In this document: in pieces, positions 3,853-64,000 of the stretch
Layout of the letters: each line of letters opens with the position of its first letter
Numbering within the stretch: the stretch's first letter is position 1
Source of the DNA: an uncultured Planctomycetaceae bacterium
GTDB taxonomy: Bacteria; Planctomycetota; Planctomycetia; Planctomycetales; Planctomycetaceae
Assembly (NCBI GenBank): GCA_963815195.1
Contig: CAWFGE010000012.1
Coordinates: 512,001-576,000 of the forward strand
Length of the DNA: 64,000 bases
Reading direction: 5' to 3'
Translations under genes and position numbers: made by a program
Notes under the pieces: model-generated
Seen by the model: the letters and a program-made list of their open reading frames with translations, nothing else
Told to the model about the DNA's origin: nothing
Database searches by the model: none

Positions 3853-5181
3853 TTAGAGCCTATTCGTTCTCAGCAAATTCTGACAGGCAGGCGAAAAGCT
3901 TCGCGGAGCGTGGGCCATCAACAACCGGGCGGCGTCCGCCTGTTCGTGGAGAATCGCAATCTCCAAGGGGGTTCGCAAATCCGCGTCCCGGAGTTCTGCA
4001 TCCGCCCCGGCGTTCAATAGCAGTTCGATAATCTCCGCCTTTCCGAAGCGGGCCGCGACATGGAGCGGCGTTTGCCCGACGTCATGCGGATCGGACGAAT
4101 TGACATCCAAACCCCAGTGGAGAGCGGTCTGGATTTGCTCCCGGTCTCCCGCAGCCACGGCAGCTATCAGCACGCCGGCCCCGCCGTCGCAAAACAACGC
4201 GGACCGGTGGTCGTTTGTCGAACCTTCTCCGAGTTCGTCCTCATCCTCGAATAAGACGTGTTCTGCATCCTCATCCGACGTCGCTAGGGGTCTGGCCGCT
4301 TCCATCTGTTGATCGAGATGGACGGTGCGGTCATCGTTAATCGCTGGGACGTGGGGAAATGGAAAAGAGACGACCGTCTTTGACGGGGCGGGAAAAACAG
4401 CCTCGGCGGGCGTGTCCGAAATCGCGGTGTCTGGGGACGCCGCTTCCCAACGCTCTTCCCAGCGCTGCCGGAGTCGCTCAAATTCGGCCCGTTCGCGGCG
4501 GAAGCGGTTCCACTCCTGCTCCATAAGGTTCTCCCGCTCGGTGAGCCGGGCTCGCTGCGATGCCAACTCGGCCCGCAACGCATTTAACTCGGCCCGCTCC
4601 CGGGCAAGTTTGACGGGATGGAAACCATCCTCTTGCCGCCGTTCCGCGATCCGGTCGCGGGCATCGCTGCAGCGGTCGCTGATGAACTCCACCAACTGCT
4701 GCAGATCAAATTGGCGGGCGTGGATCACGCGCTTCTTCAAAGCCGACAACAGCGTCCGCGCGACGCGTTCGTAGGCGGACAATGGGGCTGGGTTTTGAAT
4801 CCGAATGGAAACGCTCTCGCAGATTGCCAATCCGCTCCAGCGGGTCGGTTGATGCCGGCCGCCAAACGGCTGGGGGCTTCGGGAATGGTGCTCCAGAAAT
4901 CGTCCTGCTTCGGAGAGGGAGAGACGGGCGAAGGCGGCATAACCCGGTTGCCCGCTCCGGGCAAAGGTGTCGGCCGCGGCTTGAAAGAACGGCAGCGCGA
5001 AGCGGGCAAAACTGGGTTCCAAAGGCTTCCATCGGCCGGCGAGGACGATTTCCGTCATCCGCAGCCAATCATCAAACAGCGACAGGGCCATCTCCGACGA
5101 TTCACCCGGCAACGGGCCGGCCAGAGTCTCCCGCAACTCCGCAAGTTGTTCCTTCAACACGTCCCAGAGCGATGCAGTCAT
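3853..5181 (-). CDS. coiled-coil protein with C-terminal ankyrin repeats
   Basis: GQTPLHVAARFGKAEIIELLLNAGAD..RTPLEIA; central Arg/Glu-rich coiled coil. Confidence 0.7.
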   Translation of the reverse strand: MTASLWDVLKEQLAELRETLAGPLPGESSEMALSLFDDWLRMTEIVLAGRWKPLEPSFARFALPFFQAAADTFARSGQPGYAAFARLSLSEAGRFLEHHSRSPQPFGGRHQPTRWSGLAICESVSIRIQNPAPLSAYERVARTLLSALKKRVIHARQFDLQQLVEFISDRCSDARDRIAERRQEDGFHPVKLARERAELNALRAELASQRARLTERENLMEQEWNRFRRERAEFERLRQRWEERWEAASPDTAISDTPAEAVFPAPSKTVVSFPFPHVPAINDDRTVHLDQQMEAARPLATSDEDAEHVLFEDEDELGEGSTNDHRSALFCDGGAGVLIAAVAAGDREQIQTALHWGLDVNSSDPHDVGQTPLHVAARFGKAEIIELLLNAGADAELRDADLRTPLEIAILHEQADAARLLMAHAPRSFSPACQNLLRTNRL

Positions 5182-5452
5182 CCTGACGATTCCTTGCGTG
5201 GCGGGAAGTCCGCGATCTCGTTGTCCGTTGGAAGGCAGCCCGCGGCGAGCTGGGATTTTAAAACCTCGCAACGTTCCCAAACCGCGATGGTGAGATTTTA
5301 GGGAGGTTCGCCGTTTTGGGCGAATCCAGTTTAGCAGGGCATGCCGGCGATGCAAGCCGTCCGCCGATTGGACGCGGCGCTATTTTGAACACCAAGGCGG
5401 AGCGAGAGCGGGCTCGTTCGGCCGCGTGGTCGGCGACATGGAGAGCGAGGTT

Positions 5453-6043
5453 TTAAGACTGCACTTTTTTAGCGCGGAGACGTTCGCGGGCCCGGCTGAG
5501 CGTGGGGCCGATCGAGTTTTCGGGAATGCCCAGCATCGCGCTGATCTCGTGGTACGACCGGCCTTCCAGGTGGAACAGGCGGACGACCTCGGCATCGGTG
5601 GGCGGCAAATCCTTGAGCATCTCGCGGATTTCCTCTTCGTCGTCGATGCGGTTTTGCGGGCCCCGCGCCTGGCGGCCCGTTGACTTCAAATGATCCATCG
5701 AAGCGCGGTGCACCGTAACGTGCCCCAAGGCTTCCGCTTTCCGGCGGCGGGTGATTTCGCGGACGGCAATCCGGCGGGTCACGACGGTCAAATACCACGC
5801 CAGCGAGCTCTTCTGGCGGAATTTCCGCAGAACCTGGGCTTTGTTCTCAAGGAGCCTCAAGAAAATCTCGGCGAGCAGGTCGTCCTCGTCTTCGGGCGTC
5901 AGCGGGACGCTCCGCGCGTGCGCCGTGTGCCGGATGACGTGCACAAACAAGCCGGAGAACCGGTCCACGAAATCCTTCCAGCTTCCCGGTTCATCCGCCA
6001 GGCAGCGTCTCAGGAGTTTGCGATCAACTTCGGTGAGAGCCAC
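5453..6043 (-). CDS. ECF RNA polymerase sigma factor
   Basis: Region 2 (DDLLAEIFLRLL..WYLTVVTRR) and region 4 (EGRSYHEISAMLGIPENSIGPTLSRAR). Confidence 0.9.
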   Translation of the reverse strand: MALTEVDRKLLRRCLADEPGSWKDFVDRFSGLFVHVIRHTAHARSVPLTPEDEDDLLAEIFLRLLENKAQVLRKFRQKSSLAWYLTVVTRRIAVREITRRRKAEALGHVTVHRASMDHLKSTGRQARGPQNRIDDEEEIREMLKDLPPTDAEVVRLFHLEGRSYHEISAMLGIPENSIGPTLSRARERLRAKKVQS

Positions 6044-6588
6044 GAATGAACCTTTCGGTGGGATGCCAAGACAAGCATGGCATCAGAGTTTCAAAACCGC
6101 ACCACGCTGGTGGGAAAAATCCGCTCCATGACTATCGAACCCGCACAAATGGGGATATGTCTCGAATTTTTGGTCCAGAGGGGAAATTCATCGAGTGCAT
6201 CCTGGATATTTCCCGGGAAAACCCGCATGGGCACCCTTTCCCCATAAAATCCTTCCAGTATTAAATGTACTGGGGTGAGATGTTTGAGGCAAGACGGCTC
6301 TTGGGGAAACCGGGCATCTTGGGCCGAAGAAAGTACAAAACCCCTCATTTTTCAGGGTTTTTCAGTTTGCCTTCCTCCGGGGAAATCTCAGAAACGGACA
6401 CTTGACACTCCCGAAACCCCCCACTAAGATTCGTCAAGATTTAATTCTCGCAAGACGATTGAATATCGGAAGTTAGTGAATTTCGCGTCTCGAGTTCGAT
6501 TTTCATTTCTCGGCCTCCCAGTCGAACCAGTCTCTTCGGCAGACGCAAAGCTCCGAGAGACGACAACACCATTGGAAAGGGACCCCTC

Positions 6589-59892: not shown

Positions 59893-61082
59893 TTCTCCAC
59901 GTCGATATGGATGCGTTTTATGCTTCGGTCGAAGAGCGGGAGAATCCCCGACTCGTCGGAAAGCCGTTGATCGTCGGCGGCACGCCCGCAGGACGCGGCG
60001 TCGTCGCGGCGGCCAACTATGTCGTGCGGACGTTTGGCGTCCACAGCGCCATGCCCACCCGGACGGCGCTCCGGCTTTGCCCGGAGGCGATCGTGCTCCC
60101 GCCGCGGATGGAGTATTACGCCGAGACTTCCCGGCAGATTCGCGACGTGCTCTTCCGGTATACGCCTTTCGTCGAACCGCTCTCCTTGGACGAGGCCTTC
60201 CTCGATGTGACGGCGAGCGCAAAGCTGTTCGGCTCGGGGGCCGAAATCGCCAGGCAAATCAAGCAGGATATTCTCCGGGAAACCCGCCTGGTGGCGTCCG
60301 TGGGCGTGGCTCCCAACAAGTTCCTGGCGAAGATCGCCAGCGACCTGCAAAAACCCGACGGCCTGGTTGTCGTGGAACCGGACCGGATCGCCGAGTTTCT
60401 CGACCCCTTGCCCGTGGGCCGATTGTGGGGCGTCGGCAAAGTGACCGGCAGCGTGTTCGACCGCTGGGGCATCACCACCATCGGCGAACTGCGGCGGCTC
60501 GATCCAAAGATCCTGCACCAACAGTTCGGCCAGCAGGGAGAGCATTTCGCCAAACTGGCGCGGGGACTCGATGACCGCTCGGTCGTTCCCGATCGCGAAG
60601 CCAAGTCGATTTCCCACGAGACGACATTTGCCGCGGACATCTCCAACCGCGAGGCCCTCCGAGCGTGGTTATTGGAGCTGACGGAACACGTAGCCCGGCG
60701 GATGCGGCAGCAACAGCGGCGCGGCCGGACCGTGAACCTCAAGCTCCGCTTCGCCAACTTTCGCACGATCACGCGGGCTAAGACCTTGCCCCGCAGCACA
60801 AACGTGACGCAGGAAATTTGGCAAGCGGCGAGCGAATTGTTAATGCGCCACCTGCCCGAGTCGCATGCGGGCATCCGATTGTTGGGCGTCGGCGTCAGCA
60901 ACTTTTCGGCGGGCGAGGCTGTGCAGAAATCCCTGTTTGCGGAGGAAACGCATCAAAAACAGCAGCAACTCGACGAAGTGGCCGATGCAGTGCGGGCCAA
61001 GTTCGGGAACACCGCGCTCAACCGCGGCAGCGGTTTGCTCCACAACGCCCGGCACCGCCCCGAGCCCAAACCGAACGAATAA
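59889..61082 (+). CDS. dinB: DNA polymerase IV
   Basis: ILHVDMDAFYASVE, SLDEAFLD, NKFLAKIASD. Confidence 0.96.
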   Translation: MILHVDMDAFYASVEERENPRLVGKPLIVGGTPAGRGVVAAANYVVRTFGVHSAMPTRTALRLCPEAIVLPPRMEYYAETSRQIRDVLFRYTPFVEPLSLDEAFLDVTASAKLFGSGAEIARQIKQDILRETRLVASVGVAPNKFLAKIASDLQKPDGLVVVEPDRIAEFLDPLPVGRLWGVGKVTGSVFDRWGITTIGELRRLDPKILHQQFGQQGEHFAKLARGLDDRSVVPDREAKSISHETTFAADISNREALRAWLLELTEHVARRMRQQQRRGRTVNLKLRFANFRTITRAKTLPRSTNVTQEIWQAASELLMRHLPESHAGIRLLGVGVSNFSAGEAVQKSLFAEETHQKQQQLDEVADAVRAKFGNTALNRGSGLLHNARHRPEPKPNE

Positions 61083-61208: not shown

Positions 61209-61279
61209 ACGCCTCTAGTGTAATGGCAGCATGACTGGCTCCAACCCAGTTGGTCAGGGTTCAAATCCTTGGGGGCGTG
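61209..61279 (+). tRNA. tRNA-Trp(CCA)
   Basis: ACTGG-CTCCAAC-CCAGT; full cloverleaf. Confidence 0.9.
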
Positions 61280-61307
61280 CTGGCGAACGAACCTTCGCTC
61301 GCCAAAT

Positions 61308-61378
61308 GGGCTCATCGTCCAACAGGAAGATGCCGGTGTCGCAAGCCGGAGATCCCGGTGCAATTCCGGGTGGGTCCA
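61308..61378 (+). tRNA. tRNA-Ala(CGC)
   Basis: CCGGT-GTCGCAA-GCCGG; G3.U70. Confidence 0.85.
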
Positions 61379-61389
61379 CTCCTCAATAC

Positions 61390-61462
61390 AGTCCTGTGGC
61401 CTAGCGGCGAAGGCAGCTCCCTTACAAGGAGACGAGCGGGGGTTCGAGTCCCTCCAGGACTA
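61390..61462 (+). tRNA. tRNA-Val(TAC)
   Basis: CTCC-CTTACAA-GGAG. Confidence 0.88.
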
Positions 61463-61470
61463 CTCACCAC

Positions 61471-61544
61471 GCCCAGATACCCCAACCGGCAGAGCGACTC
61501 GGCTTAAAACCGAGTGTTTGCAGGTTCGATTCCTGCTCTGGGTC
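61471..61544 (+). tRNA. tRNA-Leu(TAA), short variable loop
   Basis: CTCGG-CTTAAAA-CCGAG. Confidence 0.8.
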
Positions 61545-61558
61545 GTGAAGACAAACTC

Positions 61559-61632
61559 GGCTCGGTAGGCAAATGGCAGACCACCTTGGCTTAGAACTAG
61601 GGATGCTGTGGGTTCGAGTCCCACCTGAGCCA
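61559..61632 (+). tRNA. tRNA-Leu(TAG), short variable loop
   Basis: CTTGG-CTTAGAA-CTAGG. Confidence 0.85.
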
Positions 61633-61645
61633 CTCAAACAAATAC

Positions 61646-61718
61646 GCCCTCGTGGAGCAGCGGAGTGCTCGCCTGCCTGTCACGCAGGAGATCGTCGGTT
61701 CAAATCCGATCGGGGGTG
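61646..61718 (+). tRNA. tRNA-Asp(GTC)
   Basis: CCTGC-CTGTCAC-GCAGG; G73. Confidence 0.9.
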
Positions 61719-61725
61719 CTGAAAT

Positions 61726-61802
61726 GGCACGGTACGCAAATGGAAAAGCGGCGAAGCTCAAACCTTCGTGATTGTCTGTGGGTTCGACTCCCTCCCGTGC
61801 TA
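61726..61802 (+). tRNA. tRNA-Leu(CAA), reduced variable arm
   Basis: CGAAG-CTCAAAC-CTTCG. Confidence 0.85.
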
Positions 61803-61815
61803 CTCAAATGATGAT

Positions 61816-61896
61816 GCGTCGGCTGGGCATTGGCGAGCCCAAGTGGCTGTAACCCACCCGCCTATCGCTGTGGCGGTTCGACTCCGTCCCGACGCA
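61816..61896 (+). tRNA. tRNA-Tyr(GTA)
   Basis: GTGG-CTGTAAC-CCAC; variable arm present. Confidence 0.85.
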
Positions 61897-61904
61897 CTCA
61901 AAAA

Positions 61905-61977
61905 GGCCCGTTCGTCTATCGGTTAAGGACACCAGCCTCTCACGCTGGAAAGATGGGTTCGATTCCCGTACGGGTCA
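61905..61977 (+). tRNA. tRNA-Glu(CTC)
   Basis: CCAGC-CTCTCAC-GCTGG. Confidence 0.9.
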
Positions 61978-61984
61978 CTGACTT

Positions 61985-62054
61985 TGCAGGTGCGGCAGGT
62001 GCCCAATCGGCTTTCATAAGGCCGGTGTGCTCGGCTCGATACCGGGACCTGCAA
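61985..62054 (+). tRNA. atypical tRNA(CAT) with minimal D-arm and extended anticodon stem
   Basis: TGCAGGT/ACCTGCA acceptor; ATCGGCT-TTCATAA-GGCCGGT; T-loop CTCGATA. Confidence 0.65.
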
Positions 62055-62069
62055 CTTATCCAACATTGA

Positions 62070-62138
62070 CGCGGGTGAGCCAGTGCTCATTCAGGCCTCA
62101 TAAGCCAGAACAGCCGGGTGCGACTCCCGGACCCGCTA
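62070..62138 (+). tRNA. atypical tRNA(CAT) with 4-nt D-loop, extended anticodon stem and CAG variable loop
   Basis: GCGGGT/ACCCGC; GAGC-CAGT-GCTC; TTCAGGC-CTCATAA-GCCAGAA; CCGGG-TGCGACT-CCCGG. Confidence 0.65.
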
Positions 62139-62146
62139 CTTGTCCA

Positions 62147-62221
62147 GGCCGGGTACGCAAACCGGAAAAGCGGGCAGGTCGAGAACGTGCGATTCTGTGG
62201 GTTCGACTCCCACTCTGGTCA
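62147..62221 (+). tRNA. tRNA-Leu(GAG), degenerate (C33, G.G stem mismatch)
   Basis: GCAGG-TCGAGAA-CGTGC; D-arm similar to Leu(CAA). Confidence 0.7.
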
Positions 62222-62228
62222 CTCGAAT

Positions 62229-62301
62229 GATCCCGTGGTCCAGTGGCGAAGACGCCTGGATGACACCCAGGAGATCGGTAGTTCGATTCTACCCGGGATC
62301 A
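62229..62301 (+). tRNA. tRNA-Val(GAC)
   Basis: CCTGG-ATGACAC-CCAGG. Confidence 0.88.
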
Positions 62302-62313
62302 CTTGCGACAACT

Positions 62314-62384
62314 GGTCTGTAGGTGTTGTGGCCGCACGCCGCTGTGGTAAGGCGGAAGACCGGGTTCAATCCCCGGACGGACCT
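62314..62384 (+). tRNA. tRNA-Thr(GGT)
   Basis: CCGCT-GTGGTAA-GGCGG. Confidence 0.8.
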
Positions 62385-62394
62385 CTCGACAAAT

Positions 62395-62485
62395 GGGCCT
62401 GCATGCCGATGGAGGCGACTGATCCTTGCAAGATCGGTGGACCACCCCAAGGGGCGGTGCCCCGGTTCAACTCCGATCAGGTCCA
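62395..62485 (+). tRNA. tRNA-Ala(TGC) with hairpin insertion in the variable region
   Basis: TGATC-CTTGCAA-GATCG; G3.U70; extra GGACCACCCCAAGGGGCGGTGCC. Confidence 0.7.
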
Positions 62486-62496
62486 CTGAAGGAAAC

Positions 62497-62567
62497 GGGC
62501 TGATGGTCCAAGGGGAAGACACCGCCCTGGCGTGGCGGAAATCCGAGTTCGACTCTCGGTCAGTCCA
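62497..62567 (+). tRNA. tRNA-Ala(GGC)
   Basis: CCGCC-CTGGCGT-GGCGG; G3.U70. Confidence 0.85.
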
Positions 62568-62576
62568 CTCACATAC

Positions 62577-62664
62577 GGAAGGTAACCGAATTGGCTTAGG
62601 AAACTGGGTGCTAACCAGTCGCCCTGGAACTGGGGTTGGATGGGTTCGATTCCCCCACCTTCCG
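62577..62664 (+). tRNA. tRNA-Ser(GCT), degenerate
   Basis: GGAAGGT/ACCTTCC-G; ACTGG-GTGCTAA-CCAGT; long variable arm. Confidence 0.7.
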
Positions 62665-62669
62665 CTTAT

Positions 62670-62741
62670 GGCTCGATGGTGAAACGGACATCATGTCTCG
62701 CTTCTAACGAGATGTTCCAGGTTCAAATCCTGGTCGAGCTA
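62670..62741 (+). tRNA. tRNA-Arg(TCT)
   Basis: TCTCG-CTTCTAA-CGAGA. Confidence 0.9.
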
Positions 62742-62775
62742 TTCCACATCACTGTGGAGGAAAAACTATCAACAT

Positions 62776-62849
62776 GGTGTCCGTGGTGTATGCGGTAGGC
62801 ACGCCTGCCTGTGAAGCAGGAAGTGAGGGTTCAACTCCCTTCGGTCACC
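62776..62849 (+). tRNA. tRNA-His(GTG)
   Basis: CCTGC-CTGTGAA-GCAGG; G-1:C73. Confidence 0.88.
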
Positions 62850-62864
62850 CTTCGACAACGTCAT

Positions 62865-62938
62865 GCCGACGTGGCTCGACTAAGAAAGGCGCCGCTCTTG
62901 TAAAGCGGCTTATGCTGGTGCAAATCCAGTCGTCGGCT
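62865..62938 (+). tRNA. tRNA-Thr(TGT)
   Basis: CCGCT-CTTGTAA-AGCGG. Confidence 0.85.
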
Positions 62939-63023
62939 CTTTTTGGTTTTGGTGGCTGAAATGTCGATTCACCATTATTCGCTTACGCGGCGCTGAGCTA
63001 TGTTCTGTCATGTGATTGAAAAA

Positions 63024-63095
63024 GTCCCGATGGTGTAACGGACAACACGAGACTTTCCTAAAGTTTCGATCCTGGTTCGATTCCAGGTCGGGATA
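63024..63095 (+). tRNA. tRNA-Arg(CCT)
   Basis: AGACT-TTCCTAA-AGTTT. Confidence 0.88.
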
Positions 63096-63106
63096 CTCAA
63101 CAACTG

Positions 63107-63177
63107 GCCTTGCGAGTGTGAGGGACGCACGGCGGTCTTCGGAACCGCAAGACGGGGTTCGACTCCCTGGCGAGGTG
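63107..63177 (+). tRNA. tRNA-Arg(TCG)
   Basis: GCGGT-CTTCGGA-ACCGC. Confidence 0.85.
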
Positions 63178-63265
63178 CTTGCAGAAGCGGAGAGCCAAGG
63201 GCGGAGAGCACAGAGCCAAACCGATTATATACCAAGCGTTCCGGCTCTCAACTCTCCGCTGTTTT

Positions 63266-63338
63266 GTCCTTGGAGTGTGCCGGATTCGCACGCGAGCCCG
63301 CGAAGCTCGCAGACCAGGTTCAATTCCTGGCGAGGACA
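63266..63338 (+). tRNA. tRNA-Arg(GCG), C33
   Basis: CGAGC-CCGCGAA-GCTCG. Confidence 0.8.
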
Positions 63339-63349
63339 TTTTCGATATG

Positions 63350-63421
63350 GACGCTGGAGCCGGATGGTGAGGCGGCTGCCTGCAAAGCAGCCAGAAGTGG
63401 GTTCGATTCCCACCGGCGTCT
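63350..63421 (+). tRNA. tRNA-Cys(GCA)
   Basis: GCTGC-CTGCAAA-GCAGC; U73. Confidence 0.9.
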
Positions 63422-63423
63422 CT

Positions 63424-63496
63424 GACCGACCAACTGCCGGTTCGGACTACATCCTGTAAAGAGGCGTGTCTGAACTTATTCCTTCGTTGGAAGGTC
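63424..63496 (+). ncRNA. Y-RNA-like scaffold unit 1 (short; Tyr-anticodon-like loop)
   Basis: GACC..CCAAC/GTTGG..GGTC outer stem; TGCCG; GTTCGGAC/GTCTGAAC inner stem; TACAT; CTGTAAA loop. Confidence 0.6.
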
Positions 63497-63505
63497 GCGA
63501 TAAAA

Positions 63506-63679
63506 GCCCAACTGCCGGCTGGGAGTCCATGACGGTCCTAAGGTAGCGATGCCGGGCGACCGGCTAGTGAATGGCGCTCGAGTCTCTCCGAGATGAAGGG
63601 GCCAGTCAACAGTCAGCGATTGACTTCGCTGATACGGACGGCCGAAGCGAAAGCATCTCTTGGCCACCCTTCGTTGGGT
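63506..63679 (+). ncRNA. Y-RNA-like scaffold unit 2 carrying a 23S rRNA H69-H71-like insert
   Basis: GCCCAAC/GTTGGGT outer stem; GGCTGGGAG/CTCTTGGCC inner stem; ACGGTCCTAAGGTAGCGA...GAATGGCG insert. Confidence 0.65.
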
Positions 63680-63690
63680 CACAACAAAAC

Positions 63691-63800
63691 GGCGACTGCC
63701 AGTTCGGAATACATCGGCTGTCCAGTGAGTCTGGCGATCGCTTTGCGATTGGCGGGTTCGATTCCCGTACGGAATTGTTTCTGACCACAACTTCGTCGCC
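63691..63800 (+). ncRNA. Y-RNA-like scaffold unit 3 with a T-arm-containing insert
   Basis: GGCGAC/GTCGCC outer stem; GTTCGGAATA/TGTTTCTGAC; GCGGG-TTCGATT-CCCGT. Confidence 0.6.
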
Positions 63801-63810
63801 ACCAAAAAAC

Positions 63811-63946
63811 GACCGACTGCCGAATTGGAGTCCATGGCTCATAACCCGGGAGTGTGGGTTCGAATCCCACCGGCGCCACTTGAAACCGAGCGCCGTAGCT
63901 TAATGGCAGAGCACCGTAAGTCTCTGGTTCAACCACCTCGTCGGTC
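63811..63946 (+). ncRNA. YrlA-like Y RNA (unit 4) with circularly permuted tRNA(CAU) domain
   Basis: GACCGAC/GTCGGTC outer stem; GCCGAA; T-arm precedes a loop-closed acceptor stem and the D-arm. Confidence 0.75.
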
Positions 63947-64000
63947 ATCTTGCATTTGAGGATAAAGGATTGAGCAATGTGTGTCCGTGTGGCGAGTTAC

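What the first reader, a model, noticed from the sequence alone, without database searches (positions are those of the whole stretch)
63424..63946. Tandem array of four Y-RNA-like scaffolds carrying different translation-RNA mimics
Seen in the sequence: four consecutive units (63424-63496, 63506-63679, 63691-63800, 63811-63946), separated by short A-rich linkers. Each has the same frame: terminal stem ending (A/G)AC, then TGCC(G/A), an inner stem, T(A/C)CAT, an INSERT, the inner-stem partner, C(T/C)TC and the terminal-stem partner. The outer stems covary between units (CCAAC/GTTGG, GCCCAAC/GTTGGGT, GGCGAC/GTCGCC, GACCGAC/GTCGGTC), which argues for conserved structure. The inserts differ: an anticodon-like loop, a 23S rRNA fragment, a T-arm module and a permuted tRNA. 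Established knowledge: YrlA-class bacterial Y RNAs join a Ro60(Rsr)-binding stem to a permuted tRNA-like domain and occur near rsr/rtcB. Inference: this is a modular Ro60-tethered decoy or adaptor set that displays ribotoxin or repair targets and is co-transcribed with the tRNA array.
Basis: partly seen in the sequence, partly recalled or inferred. Interest (0 to 1): 0.92.

Follow-up and report, generated by a model that had tools for sequence, protein, structure and literature searches.

The report
Ro60 partner RNAs mimicking ribosomal RNA
Between a spare cluster of tRNA genes and the Ro60 gene of a planctomycete lies a row of small Ro60-partner (Y) RNA genes, and one of them carries a rearranged miniature copy of part of the large ribosomal RNA, a cargo I could not find described for these RNAs.

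Summary
The four units are real, and they are bacterial Y RNA genes. The 5' frame motif occurs 4 times in the window against 0.07 expected. An rsr (Ro60) gene starts 853 bases past the window end on the same strand. Two more units and a remnant lie between the window end and rsr. Unit 4 is a YrlA-type permuted tRNA mimic: Rfam YrlA E 5.9e-5, below the gathering score, with covariation in 24 orthologues. Unit 3 carries a T-arm. Unit 1 is a short hairpin Y RNA; its 'anticodon-like loop' is not conserved.

Tandem Y RNA arrays beside rsr are known, and this scan has met them before. Unit 2 is the unusual part. Its insert is a circularly permuted miniature of the 23S rRNA domain IV junction (H67-H71), opened in or beside H69. 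A 21-base stretch is identical to the genome's own 23S. I found the unit in 45 public genomes, nearly all Planctomycetota, and its helices covary strongly. My paper searches found no description of an rRNA-mimicking Y RNA.

Expression and Rsr binding are untested. The ribotoxin and repair-target idea has no support.

The parts
61209..63422 (+). Array of 22 tRNA genes just upstream of the Y RNAs. It is a second, redundant set.
   Evidence: ARAGORN finds 21 in this stretch. Rfam adds 61308-61378, and 15 of the 22 reach Rfam's tRNA gathering score. 20 of the 21 ARAGORN anticodons are also encoded elsewhere among the genome's 97 tRNAs.
63424..63496 (+). Unit 1: short hairpin Y RNA (YrlB/Yrn2-like). 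It starts 2 bases after tRNA-Cys.
   Evidence: Frame motif. Fold -25.5 kcal/mol, z -2.9. The scaffold is conserved and the insert varies in 19 orthologues.
63506..63679 (+). Unit 2: Y RNA whose module is a permuted miniature of the 23S rRNA H67-H71 junction.
   Evidence: Model R1 scores it 190 bits.
63529..63549 (+). Inside unit 2: the 3' strand of H69 plus the H70 segment (AUGACGGUCCUAAGGUAGCGA), identical to the genome's own 23S at 1877-1897.
   Evidence: 23S structure line.
63551..63564 (+). Inside unit 2: miniature H71 (GCCGG-GCGA-CCGGC, a GNRA-capped hairpin).
   Evidence: 98.5% of cells paired, and 4 of 5 pairs change on both sides across 39 sequences.
63568..63576 (+). Inside unit 2: UGAAUGGCG, equal to the junction plus the 3' strand of H67 in the own 23S (1928-1936).
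63612..63632 (+). Inside unit 2: covarying hairpin in the place of H68.
   Evidence: 8 of 8 pairs change on both sides; 90% of cells paired.
63634..63645 (+). Inside unit 2: ACGGAC-GGCCGA. Relatives read GGCCGUAA, which is the 5' flank, 5' strand and loop start of H69. It pairs with 63532-63537.
   Evidence: 94.4% of cells paired in A2. L100 has AGGGGC with GUCCCU, two double compensatory changes. The rotated order aligns collinearly with the 23S.
63691..63800 (+). Unit 3: Y RNA with two hairpins and a T-arm.
   Evidence: Orthologues share the GGCGAC/GUCGCC outer stem and fall into two insert subclasses.
63811..63946 (+). Unit 4: YrlA-type Y RNA with T-arm 63854-63870, a closed acceptor-like stem and a D-arm.
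   Evidence: Rfam YrlA 31.9 bits, E 5.9e-5. In 24 orthologues RNAalifold predicts 26 pairs, 14 with double changes.
63947..64000 (+). Last bases of the window. The system runs on beyond base 64000. Coordinates below are in L002 (L002 = window coordinate minus 60000).
- 4094-4462: a 122-aa ORF of unknown family.
- 4474-4621: unit 5, with a T-arm, a long closed hairpin and a small hairpin.
- 4637-4760: unit 6, with a T-arm and a closed stem, followed by a run of 7 T.
- 4774-4852: unit 7, a remnant in the rsr leader.
- 4853-6463: rsr (Ro60 orthologue), 536 aa.
   Evidence: Sequence. Units: (z -2.4, -4.5, -3.9). No YrlA hit at E<=1.

ORF: found in 6 other loci at 43-81% identity; no Pfam or NCBIfam match; AF2 pLDDT 77.5; best structural Z 6.6, a generic SH3-like barrel.

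rsr: Pfam TROVE 1.8e-11 and vWA_Ro60 1.7e-13; PDB 2nvo E 1.1e-19 over residues 15-523; NCBIfam Rsr 88 bits against a cut-off of 900.

Best explanation
The stretch is the first part of an array of six Y RNA genes plus a remnant. The array lies between a redundant tRNA array and rsr (bacterial Ro60).

Each RNA has the same Rsr-binding stem: a 5-8 bp outer helix, UGCC, an 8-9 bp inner helix, U(A/C)CAU on the 5' side and YUC on the 3' side. Each displays a different module. By analogy with characterised Y RNAs, the stem sits on the outer face of the Rsr ring. The module then tethers the RNP to whatever normally recognises the mimicked RNA, or gates the ring. This step is inferred.

Unit 4 mimics a tRNA opened at the anticodon end (YrlA type).

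Unit 2 applies the same design to ribosomal RNA. It is a circular permutation of the 23S domain IV junction, containing the H69 stem, H70, a shortened H71, an H67-like helix and a short hairpin in place of H68. The scaffold is attached in the H69 loop in type A. In type B it is attached inside the 5' strand of H69, and the H69 loop stays intact.

This junction forms the core of the 50S interface with the 30S subunit (recalled). My preferred mechanism is therefore that unit 2 brings Rsr, and an exonuclease partner such as PNPase, to a ligand of that surface. That ligand could be a protein that binds H69-H71 or the h44/h45 face of the 30S subunit. The purpose would be surveillance or turnover of ribosomal RNA.

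Shown here: the anatomy, the conservation, the covariation and the synteny with rsr. Inferred: Rsr binding, expression, and the ligand.
For: - Frame motif: 4 matches in the window against 0.07 expected.
- rsr lies 907 bases after unit 4 on the same strand.
- The scaffold resembles the Rfam YrlA consensus (CgaAUGCuuggGgaaCUA ... aAaAcUuGucG), as seen. More distant relatives have CGAAUGCC, which fits the published GNCGAAN0-1G motif (PMC4201824, passage).
- Unit 2 family: 45 of the 60 genome contigs matches to the junction pattern are Y-scaffold units, and 15 are true 23S genes. Of the 45, 38 have rsr within the fetched 4 kb: 37 downstream on the same strand and 1 upstream.
- Covariation on 39 sequences: 90.3% of cells paired against 25-44% for slid partners; 29 of 47 pairs change on both sides; 0 of 500 shuffles reach any of the five measures.
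- On the model-fitted alignment of 19 matches, 90.7% of cells are paired and 36 of 47 pairs change on both sides.
- H69-like closing stem: L100 carries AGGGGC with GUCCCU. In the 4 type-B sequences with a complete local hairpin (L024, L103, L104, L105) the H69 loop stays local and the 3' CGUAA is absent. L102 keeps only part of that hairpin.
- The rotated order aligns collinearly with the own 23S at about 1850-1937. Scores are 60.5-76 rotated, 52.5-61 in native order, and 21 on average (maximum 36) for shuffles, on 4 sequences.
- Only unit 2 resembles the rrn operon: z 6.8 against 2.0 or less for the other five inserts.
- The order short - 23S mimic - T-arm - YrlA - T-arm... - rsr recurs in many loci.
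- Unit 4 orthologues covary.
Against: - There are no expression data; no RNA run was listed. Rsr binding is untested.
- The 5' motif is NCGACUG or CCAACUG, one base off the published GNCGAAN0-1G.
- Unit 4 scores 31.9 bits, below Rfam's YrlA gathering score of 69. Units 1-3, 5 and 6 hit no Rfam Y RNA family.
- Unit 2 is 174 nt, longer than the 80-130 nt given for characterised Y RNAs (PMC4201824, introduction).
- 7 of the 45 unit-2 loci show no rsr in the fetched flank. Three of these are cut by contig ends. Four (L032, L040, L042, L078) have about 4 kb downstream without rsr. In G017 the mimic and rsr lie on different contigs.
- In alignment A2 the 5' strand of the H69-like stem was fixed by my search pattern, so that stem shows only one-sided changes there. 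The double changes come from the model-fitted alignment, above all one sequence (L100).
- The H67-like helix is only 71-73% paired, and its assignment to H67 rather than the 3' strand of H68 is ambiguous.
- The proposed ligand is pure inference.
Confidence: 0.8

Rival explanations
1. This is the first reader's reading: the modules are decoys that display the targets of ribotoxins or of RNA repair enzymes. They would soak up toxins or feed an RtcB-type repair pathway.
For: Salmonella Y RNAs lie in the rsr-yrlBA-rtcBA operon, which responds to damaged tRNA (PMC7790460; listing and start of abstract only). The modules here do copy translation RNAs.
Against: No rtcB or rtcA lies at the locus. The genes after rsr are MarR, an SDR, pirin, IspF and CysRS. 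The only RtcB match is on contig C1 and is split by a stop. The 23S mimic has lost the helix-70 loop AGUUCCUU, the one toxin site I recall in this region (MazF-mt6; recalled, not checked). No toxin gene was seen.
Confidence: 0.08
2. The shared frame is not an Rsr site. It would be a processing or stability cassette, or a cis-acting leader of rsr. The units would then be released or act without Ro60. Unit 2 in particular might titrate a ribosomal protein or an rRNA modification enzyme, as rRNA-mimicking leaders do.
For: 4 of the 45 unit-2 loci have no rsr within about 4 kb downstream. In G017 the mimic is on another contig than rsr. The units follow tRNA genes closely, so tRNA-processing enzymes could release them. 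Unit 7 lies in the rsr leader.
Against: 38 of 45 loci have rsr within 4 kb. The frame matches the stem of the Rfam YrlA consensus. The same frame carries a canonical YrlA-type module in unit 4. No ribosomal protein or modification gene follows the unit.
Confidence: 0.09
3. The units are decayed tRNA genes and a stray 23S fragment at the end of a tRNA array, without function.
For: They adjoin 22 tRNA genes. Several carry T-arms. One holds 21 bases of 23S.
Against: The ordered array is conserved across many species-level genomes, with compensatory changes in every helix. H71 and H68 are neatly shortened to capped hairpins. ARAGORN and Rfam's tRNA model call none of the units.
Confidence: 0.02

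Closest known systems
YrlA (Salmonella Typhimurium and more than 250 homologues; Rfam RF02553; Chen et al. 2014, PMC4201824, sections 5 and 9 and passages read; structure preprint 10.1101/312249, listing only)
   Same: Unit 4 matches YrlA in four respects. The stem is formed by the 5' and 3' ends with a conserved 5' motif. The module is a tRNA look-alike with T-arm, D-arm and a closed acceptor stem. It lies within 4 kb of rsr on the same strand. It is one of several Y RNAs at the locus.
   Different: Unit 4 scores 31.9 bits against the gathering score of 69. The 5' motif reads CGACUG, not CGAA(N)G. Unit 2 uses the same frame and the same permutation principle, but on 23S rRNA instead of tRNA.
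Deinococcus radiodurans Yrn1/Yrn2 and the small RNAs upstream of rsr (PMC4201824, section 9)
   Same: Several Y-type RNAs lie upstream of rsr. They are made as one precursor together with a tRNA. One is a short hairpin type like unit 1. In that organism Rsr is tied to 23S maturation and rRNA decay (introduction of the same paper).
   Different: That locus holds one tRNA, not 22. None of those RNAs is described as resembling rRNA.
Tandem Y RNA arrays noted earlier in this scan (e1-7023091, e1-2639367, e1-4228801 and others)
   Same: They hold three to six different Y RNAs in a row beside rsr, one of them in a planctomycete.
   Different: None of those notes mentions an rRNA-like module or a large tRNA array. 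A look-up with unit 2 itself found nothing.
rRNA-mimicking leaders of ribosomal protein operons (recalled class; PMC3895269 seen in listing only)
   Same: A small RNA copies a local rRNA structure so that an rRNA-binding partner recognises it.
   Different: Those leaders act in cis on mRNAs, copy a single protein site and are not permuted. Unit 2 is a free-standing unit in a Y RNA frame and copies a five-helix junction.
Bacterial tRNA gene arrays (recalled: surveys of tRNA arrays in Actinobacteria and Cyanobacteria; no paper read here)
   Same: A dense array of 20-odd tRNA genes duplicates the genome's regular set.
   Different: Here, and in 18 of the 45 related loci, the array runs straight into a Y RNA array and rsr. 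I do not recall that link being described.

Membership tests
Bacterial Y RNA (Rsr/Ro60-bound ncRNA) | Encoded within about 4 kb of rsr on the same strand | tested here: met
   Units 1-4 end 907-1357 bases before the rsr start; units 5-7 lie closer. 38 of 45 unit-2 loci have rsr within 4 kb.
Bacterial Y RNA (Rsr/Ro60-bound ncRNA) | Long stem formed by pairing of the 5' and 3' ends | tested here: met
   Outer and inner helices are 98% and 90% paired, with 5 of 7 and 7 of 9 pairs changed on both sides. The same holds in unit 4 orthologues.
Bacterial Y RNA (Rsr/Ro60-bound ncRNA) | GNCGAAN0-1G motif near the 5' end (PMC4201824) | tested here: inconclusive
   The window's units read GGCGACUG, CCGACUG or CCAACUG, one base off. 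Relatives with a more distant Rsr read CGAAUGCC.
Bacterial Y RNA (Rsr/Ro60-bound ncRNA) | Bound by Rsr and dependent on it for stability | not testable with these tools
   This needs immunoprecipitation and an rsr mutant.
YrlA (Rfam RF02553) | Reaches the curated gathering score of 69 bits | tested here: not met
   Unit 4 scores 31.9 bits, E 5.9e-5, over the full model 1-114. Units 5 and 6 give no hit at E<=1. I therefore call unit 4 YrlA-type by architecture, not a curated member.
YrlA (Rfam RF02553) | tRNA-like module: T-arm, D-arm, acceptor stem closed by a loop | tested here: met
   Unit 4 has GUGGG-UUCGAAU-CCCAC, CGGCGC...GCGCCG and UAGCUUAAUGGCAGAGC. The T and acceptor stems covary in 24 orthologues.
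23S rRNA gene or collinear fragment | Collinear match to the bacterial LSU model | tested here: not met
   No LSU hit on 63300-64000 at E<=10. The 23S-like segments stand in permuted order.
tRNA gene | Called by ARAGORN or by Rfam's tRNA model | tested here: not met
   No call inside 63424-63946 or L002 4440-4870.

The most novel reading that the evidence does not exclude
Y RNAs in these planctomycetes would be a library of circularly permuted mimics of the translation machinery's RNAs: tRNA in units 4 and 5, and the 23S H67-H71 interface core in unit 2. The 23S mimic would dock the Ro60 ring, with an exonuclease, on the 30S face that normally meets H69/H71, beside the 3' end of 16S rRNA. Alternatively it would dock on a factor that reads H69. 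Together with the adjoining spare tRNA array, the locus would form a stress-time island for maintaining the translation apparatus. This would be the first rRNA-mimicking Y RNA and a direct physical link between Ro60 RNPs and ribosomal subunits.
Probability: 0.25. Interest if true: 0.9.

Novelty: new variant of a known kind. Interest (0 to 1): 0.74.

Why it matters
How Ro60 RNPs choose their substrates is an open question, and so is why bacterial Y RNAs copy tRNA. A second, independent case of the same design now uses a piece of 23S rRNA: a permuted copy of a translation RNA grafted on the Ro60-binding stem. This suggests that mimicry of translation RNAs is the general principle of the effector module. 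It also points to the ribosome as a direct client, in line with the genetic links of Rsr to 23S maturation and rRNA decay in Deinococcus. The idea can be tested. The RNA is short, its helices are defined by covariation, and at least one cultured strain carries it. The recurring junction of large spare tRNA arrays with Y RNA arrays and rsr also deserves a look.

Tried and rejected
- RNA evidence: no RNA holder was listed for L002 3340-4900.
- Rfam at E<=10 gave nothing for units 1-3. At E<=1 it gave only T-arm fragments for units 5 and 6.
- The promoter and terminator consensus scan was uninformative: counts were near shuffle expectation and no + strand site lay between the array and rsr.
- The anticodon-like loop of unit 1 is not conserved.
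- I looked for rRNA likeness in the other inserts and found none: z 2.0 or less against the rrn operon.
- Viral contigs gave 0 matches to the junction pattern.
- In the phylum-wide sample of 150 other genomes, no match reached E<=1e-10. In the class sample, 13 of 150 others had a full-length match.
- For the small ORF, Foldseek's best E was 0.057 and VIA's best Z was 6.6 (NdhS, KOW). This is a common SH3-like barrel and gives no function.
- Paper searches: searches listed nothing on a Y RNA resembling rRNA or on Y RNAs in Planctomycetes. The library holds open-access papers only, and I did not open the supplementary tables of PMC4201824, which may list planctomycete YrlA hits.
- Earlier notes of this scan by place and by sequence returned nothing.
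- I considered that the scaffold's GACUGCCGGUG echoes the 23S stretch GACGCCUGCUCGGUG at the base of H67/H68. I set this aside as too short to judge.

Full report
**Observation.** The 5' frame, written ACTGCCR-N6-9-TMCAT, matches four times in the 64-kb window and only at the four units. The expectation from 100 shuffles is 0.07. Each unit ends with YTC followed by the complement of its first 5-7 bases, and the outer stems differ between units. A-rich linkers of 9-11 bases separate the units. Unit 1 begins two bases after the last gene of a 22-gene tRNA array.

**Surroundings.** The window is G000:C12:512001-576000. Reading on past base 64000 (L002 = window coordinate minus 60000) shows, in order:
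- a 122-codon ORF;
- two more complete units, L002 4474-4621 and 4637-4760;
- a remnant that repeats 18 bases of unit 6's 5' scaffold, L002 4774-4852;
- a 536-codon gene with Pfam TROVE (1.8e-11) and Ro60 vWA (1.7e-13) domains.

The last gene matches D. radiodurans Rsr (PDB 2nvo) at E 1.1e-19 along its length. No rtcB is nearby. The next genes are MarR, an SDR, pirin, IspF and CysRS. The genome's RtcB match is on contig C1 and is split by a stop.

**Identity of the frame.** Rfam's YrlA model covers unit 4 from end to end at 31.9 bits (E 5.9e-5), below the gathering score of 69. The printed consensus has the same stem layout as all the units here: stem, AUGC, stem, CUA on the 5' side, and A-rich loop, CUUG, stem on the 3' side. 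Chen et al. 2014 (PMC4201824; I read sections 5 and 9 and passages of 3, 6, 8 and 18) define a 5' motif GNCGAAN0-1G as the likely Rsr contact. The units here read NCGACUG or CCAACUG. Relatives whose Rsr is only 41-45% identical have CGAAUGCC units downstream of rsr. I take the frame to be a lineage variant of the Rsr-binding stem. Actual binding is inferred.

**Relatives.** An Rsr search in 60 relatives found the gene in 11. Their upstream regions hold the same kind of units. A rough classification of units in 52 loci shows a recurring order: short hairpin unit, 23S-like unit, T-arm unit, YrlA-type unit, further T-arm units, short unit, rsr. The window's genome follows this order.

Unit 4 orthologues (24 aligned; 2 of 26 dropped for large insertions) give an RNAalifold consensus of outer stem, inner stem, T-arm and closed acceptor stem. 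Of its 26 pairs, 14 have compensatory changes. Unit 1 orthologues keep the scaffold but not the insert, so the 'anticodon-like loop' is not a conserved feature. Unit 3 orthologues share the GGCGAC/GUCGCC stem and a T-arm and fall into two insert types.

**Unit 2, the 23S mimic.**
- Positions 24-44 of unit 2 are identical to the genome's own 23S rRNA at 1877-1897, blastn E 2.9e-4 genome-wide. Rfam's structure line for that 23S region shows these bases to be the end of the H69 loop, the 3' strand of H69 and the H70 segment CUAAG-GUAGCGA.
- In the mimic a 5-bp GNRA-capped hairpin follows. It replaces the internal loop and the H71 hairpin.
- Then comes UGAAUGGCG, equal to the junction plus the 3' strand of H67. 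After it lie a small GUCUC hairpin, GGGGCC, a covarying hairpin, and ACGGAC-GGCCGU-AA. That last piece is the 23S sequence just 5' of H69, the 5' strand of H69 and the first loop bases, with one extra A.
- The insert is therefore the H67-H71 junction read in circularly permuted order, starting and ending in the H69 loop, where the Y RNA stem is attached.
- For four sequences, rotating the insert raises its collinear alignment score to the own 23S from 52.5-61 to 60.5-76. Shuffles average 21 with a maximum of 36.
- None of the other five inserts resembles the rrn operon: z 2.0 or less against 6.8 for unit 2.

**Conservation of unit 2.** An exact-pattern scan of one genome per prokaryotic species gave 60 loci. 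Of these, 15 are true 23S genes whose H69 loop happens to read CAUGACGG. The other 45 are Y-scaffold units. The record titles are almost all Planctomycetota: Pirellulaceae, Planctomycetaceae, Pirellulales, Mariniblastus, Bythopirellula and the cultured Aeoliella straminimaris. Two units sit on short contigs of bins labelled Solibacteraceae and Candidatus Kuenenia, and one on a contig of a bin labelled only 'bacterium'.

I could delimit 41 of the 45 units; the window's own unit and that of G038 brought the set to 43. I aligned 39 after dropping one duplicate and three with 80-110-base insertions. With my structure:
- 90.3% of cells pair, against 25-44% when partners are slid;
- 29 of 47 pairs change on both sides;
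- no shuffle of 500 reaches any of the five measures.

The miniature H71 (4 of 5 pairs) and the H68-position hairpin (8 of 8 pairs) covary best. The H69-like closing stem is 94% paired but shows only one-sided changes in that set, because my pattern fixed its 5' strand.

A covariance model built from the alignment removed that bias. Among 150 other genomes of the class it found 13 full-length matches of 76 bits or more, plus weaker scaffold-only hits to other Y units. It found none at E<=1e-10 among 150 other genomes sampled across the phylum. One new sequence (L100) has AGGGGC paired with GUCCCU in place of ACGGUC with GGCCGU, two double compensatory changes.

Four sequences (L024, L103, L104, L105) keep a local H69 hairpin with the intact loop CGUAACUAUKACG. 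These four lack the 3' CGUAA. That is a second break point of the same permutation, type B. L102 keeps only part of that hairpin. On this model-fitted alignment 5 of 6 pairs of the stem change on both sides. The fit leans towards the model, and four rows are other unit types.

The assignment of the UGGCGCY/GGGGCCA helix (71-73% paired) is uncertain. It takes the place of H67, but its 3' strand also resembles the 3' strand of H68.

**Context of unit 2 elsewhere.** Of the 45 loci, 37 have rsr 0.4-2.1 kb downstream on the same strand and one has it upstream. Seven show none; three of these are cut by contig ends and four have about 4 kb of downstream sequence without rsr. Eighteen have six or more same-strand tRNA genes in the flank upstream of the unit (up to 4 kb), up to 36. 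In the window's genome 20 of the array's 21 ARAGORN anticodons are also encoded elsewhere. The array is therefore a second tRNA set.

**Mechanism.** What is established for Y RNAs, from PMC4201824 as read, is this. The stem binds Ro60/Rsr. The other end tethers a partner, which is PNPase in D. radiodurans. YrlA's module is a tRNA look-alike handled by tRNA enzymes. Rsr takes part in 23S maturation and rRNA decay. In D. radiodurans Y RNAs are made as one precursor with a tRNA.

On that basis I read the array as a set of adaptors. The new point is that unit 2 presents the H67-H71 junction. From recall, not from any call, this junction carries H69 and H71, which form the central bridges to h44 of the 30S subunit, and it is read by several factors.

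- My preferred step is that unit 2 tethers Rsr to a ligand of that surface. I give this about 0.6, conditional on the unit being a Y RNA.
- Between a protein ligand and the 30S subunit itself I cannot choose.
- A pure decoy role is less likely. The toxin-site loop of H70 is deleted and no repair or toxin gene is linked.

**Novelty.** Tandem Y RNA arrays beside rsr are known, and earlier notes of this scan describe several, including one in a planctomycete. That part is ordinary. I found no description of an rRNA-like Y RNA module in three full-text searches, in Rfam, or in this scan's notes by sequence. I did not open the supplementary tables of PMC4201824. I class the finding as a new variant of a known kind.

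**Limits.** There is no transcript evidence and no binding test. No R-scape was available, so I used pair counts with shuffles and slid controls. Kinship among the genomes inflates those counts.

Noticed in passing
window 61209-63422: A dense array of 22 tRNA genes duplicates the genome's regular set: 20 of 21 anticodons occur elsewhere. Seven of the ARAGORN calls miss Rfam's tRNA gathering score. One (tRNA-Ala tgc, 62395-62486) is 92 bases long.
   Followed up: partly
L034, L041, L052, L054, L065, L074, L090 and others: Large same-strand tRNA arrays, up to 36 genes in 4 kb, run straight into the Y RNA array and rsr in 18 of 45 related loci. This is a recurring tRNA array - Y RNA - Ro60 arrangement.
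   Followed up: partly
L002 4094-4462 (94-462 bases past the window end): A 122-aa ORF with no Pfam or NCBIfam family sits inside the Y RNA array. tblastn finds it next to Y RNAs or rsr in 6 other loci. The model is an SH3-like/KOW-type barrel (pLDDT 77.5), so it could be an RNA-binding partner.
   Followed up: partly
L002 4751-4767: Unit 6's 8-bp outer stem is followed by a run of seven T. This looks like an intrinsic terminator ahead of the rsr leader.
   Followed up: no
L002 4774-4852: The rsr leader holds a remnant Y unit: the 5' scaffold closes directly on itself, and a second hairpin is made of a unit's 3' end and another unit's 5' start. Relatives have a complete unit here. It may be an Rsr autoregulation site or just debris.
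   Followed up: no
G000:C10:430116-431348 (-), locus L016/L031: A second rsr copy in the same genome, 81% identical over residues 31-442, is interrupted by 3 TGA codons. My motif scan found no Y units beside it.
   Followed up: partly
G000:C1:69247-70553, loci L122/L123: The genome's only RtcB match is split into two overlapping frames with one TAA inside. It is either a frameshift or a broken gene.
   Followed up: no
L045, L047, L081: Three 23S-mimic units carry insertions of 80-110 bases: at the capped hairpin after the H67-like strand in L045 and L047, and just after the miniature H71 in L081. L072 has a triplicated GUCUC hairpin segment. These sites tolerate expansion.
   Followed up: no
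L032 and L042: These are orphan 23S-mimic units with no rsr within 4 kb downstream and at most one short hairpin unit nearby. In L042 a convergent 817-codon ORF follows.
   Followed up: partly
window 60024-61082 (L002 24-1082): A DinB/ImpB-family translesion polymerase gene (Pfam IMS, IMS_C) lies directly upstream of the tRNA array.
   Followed up: no
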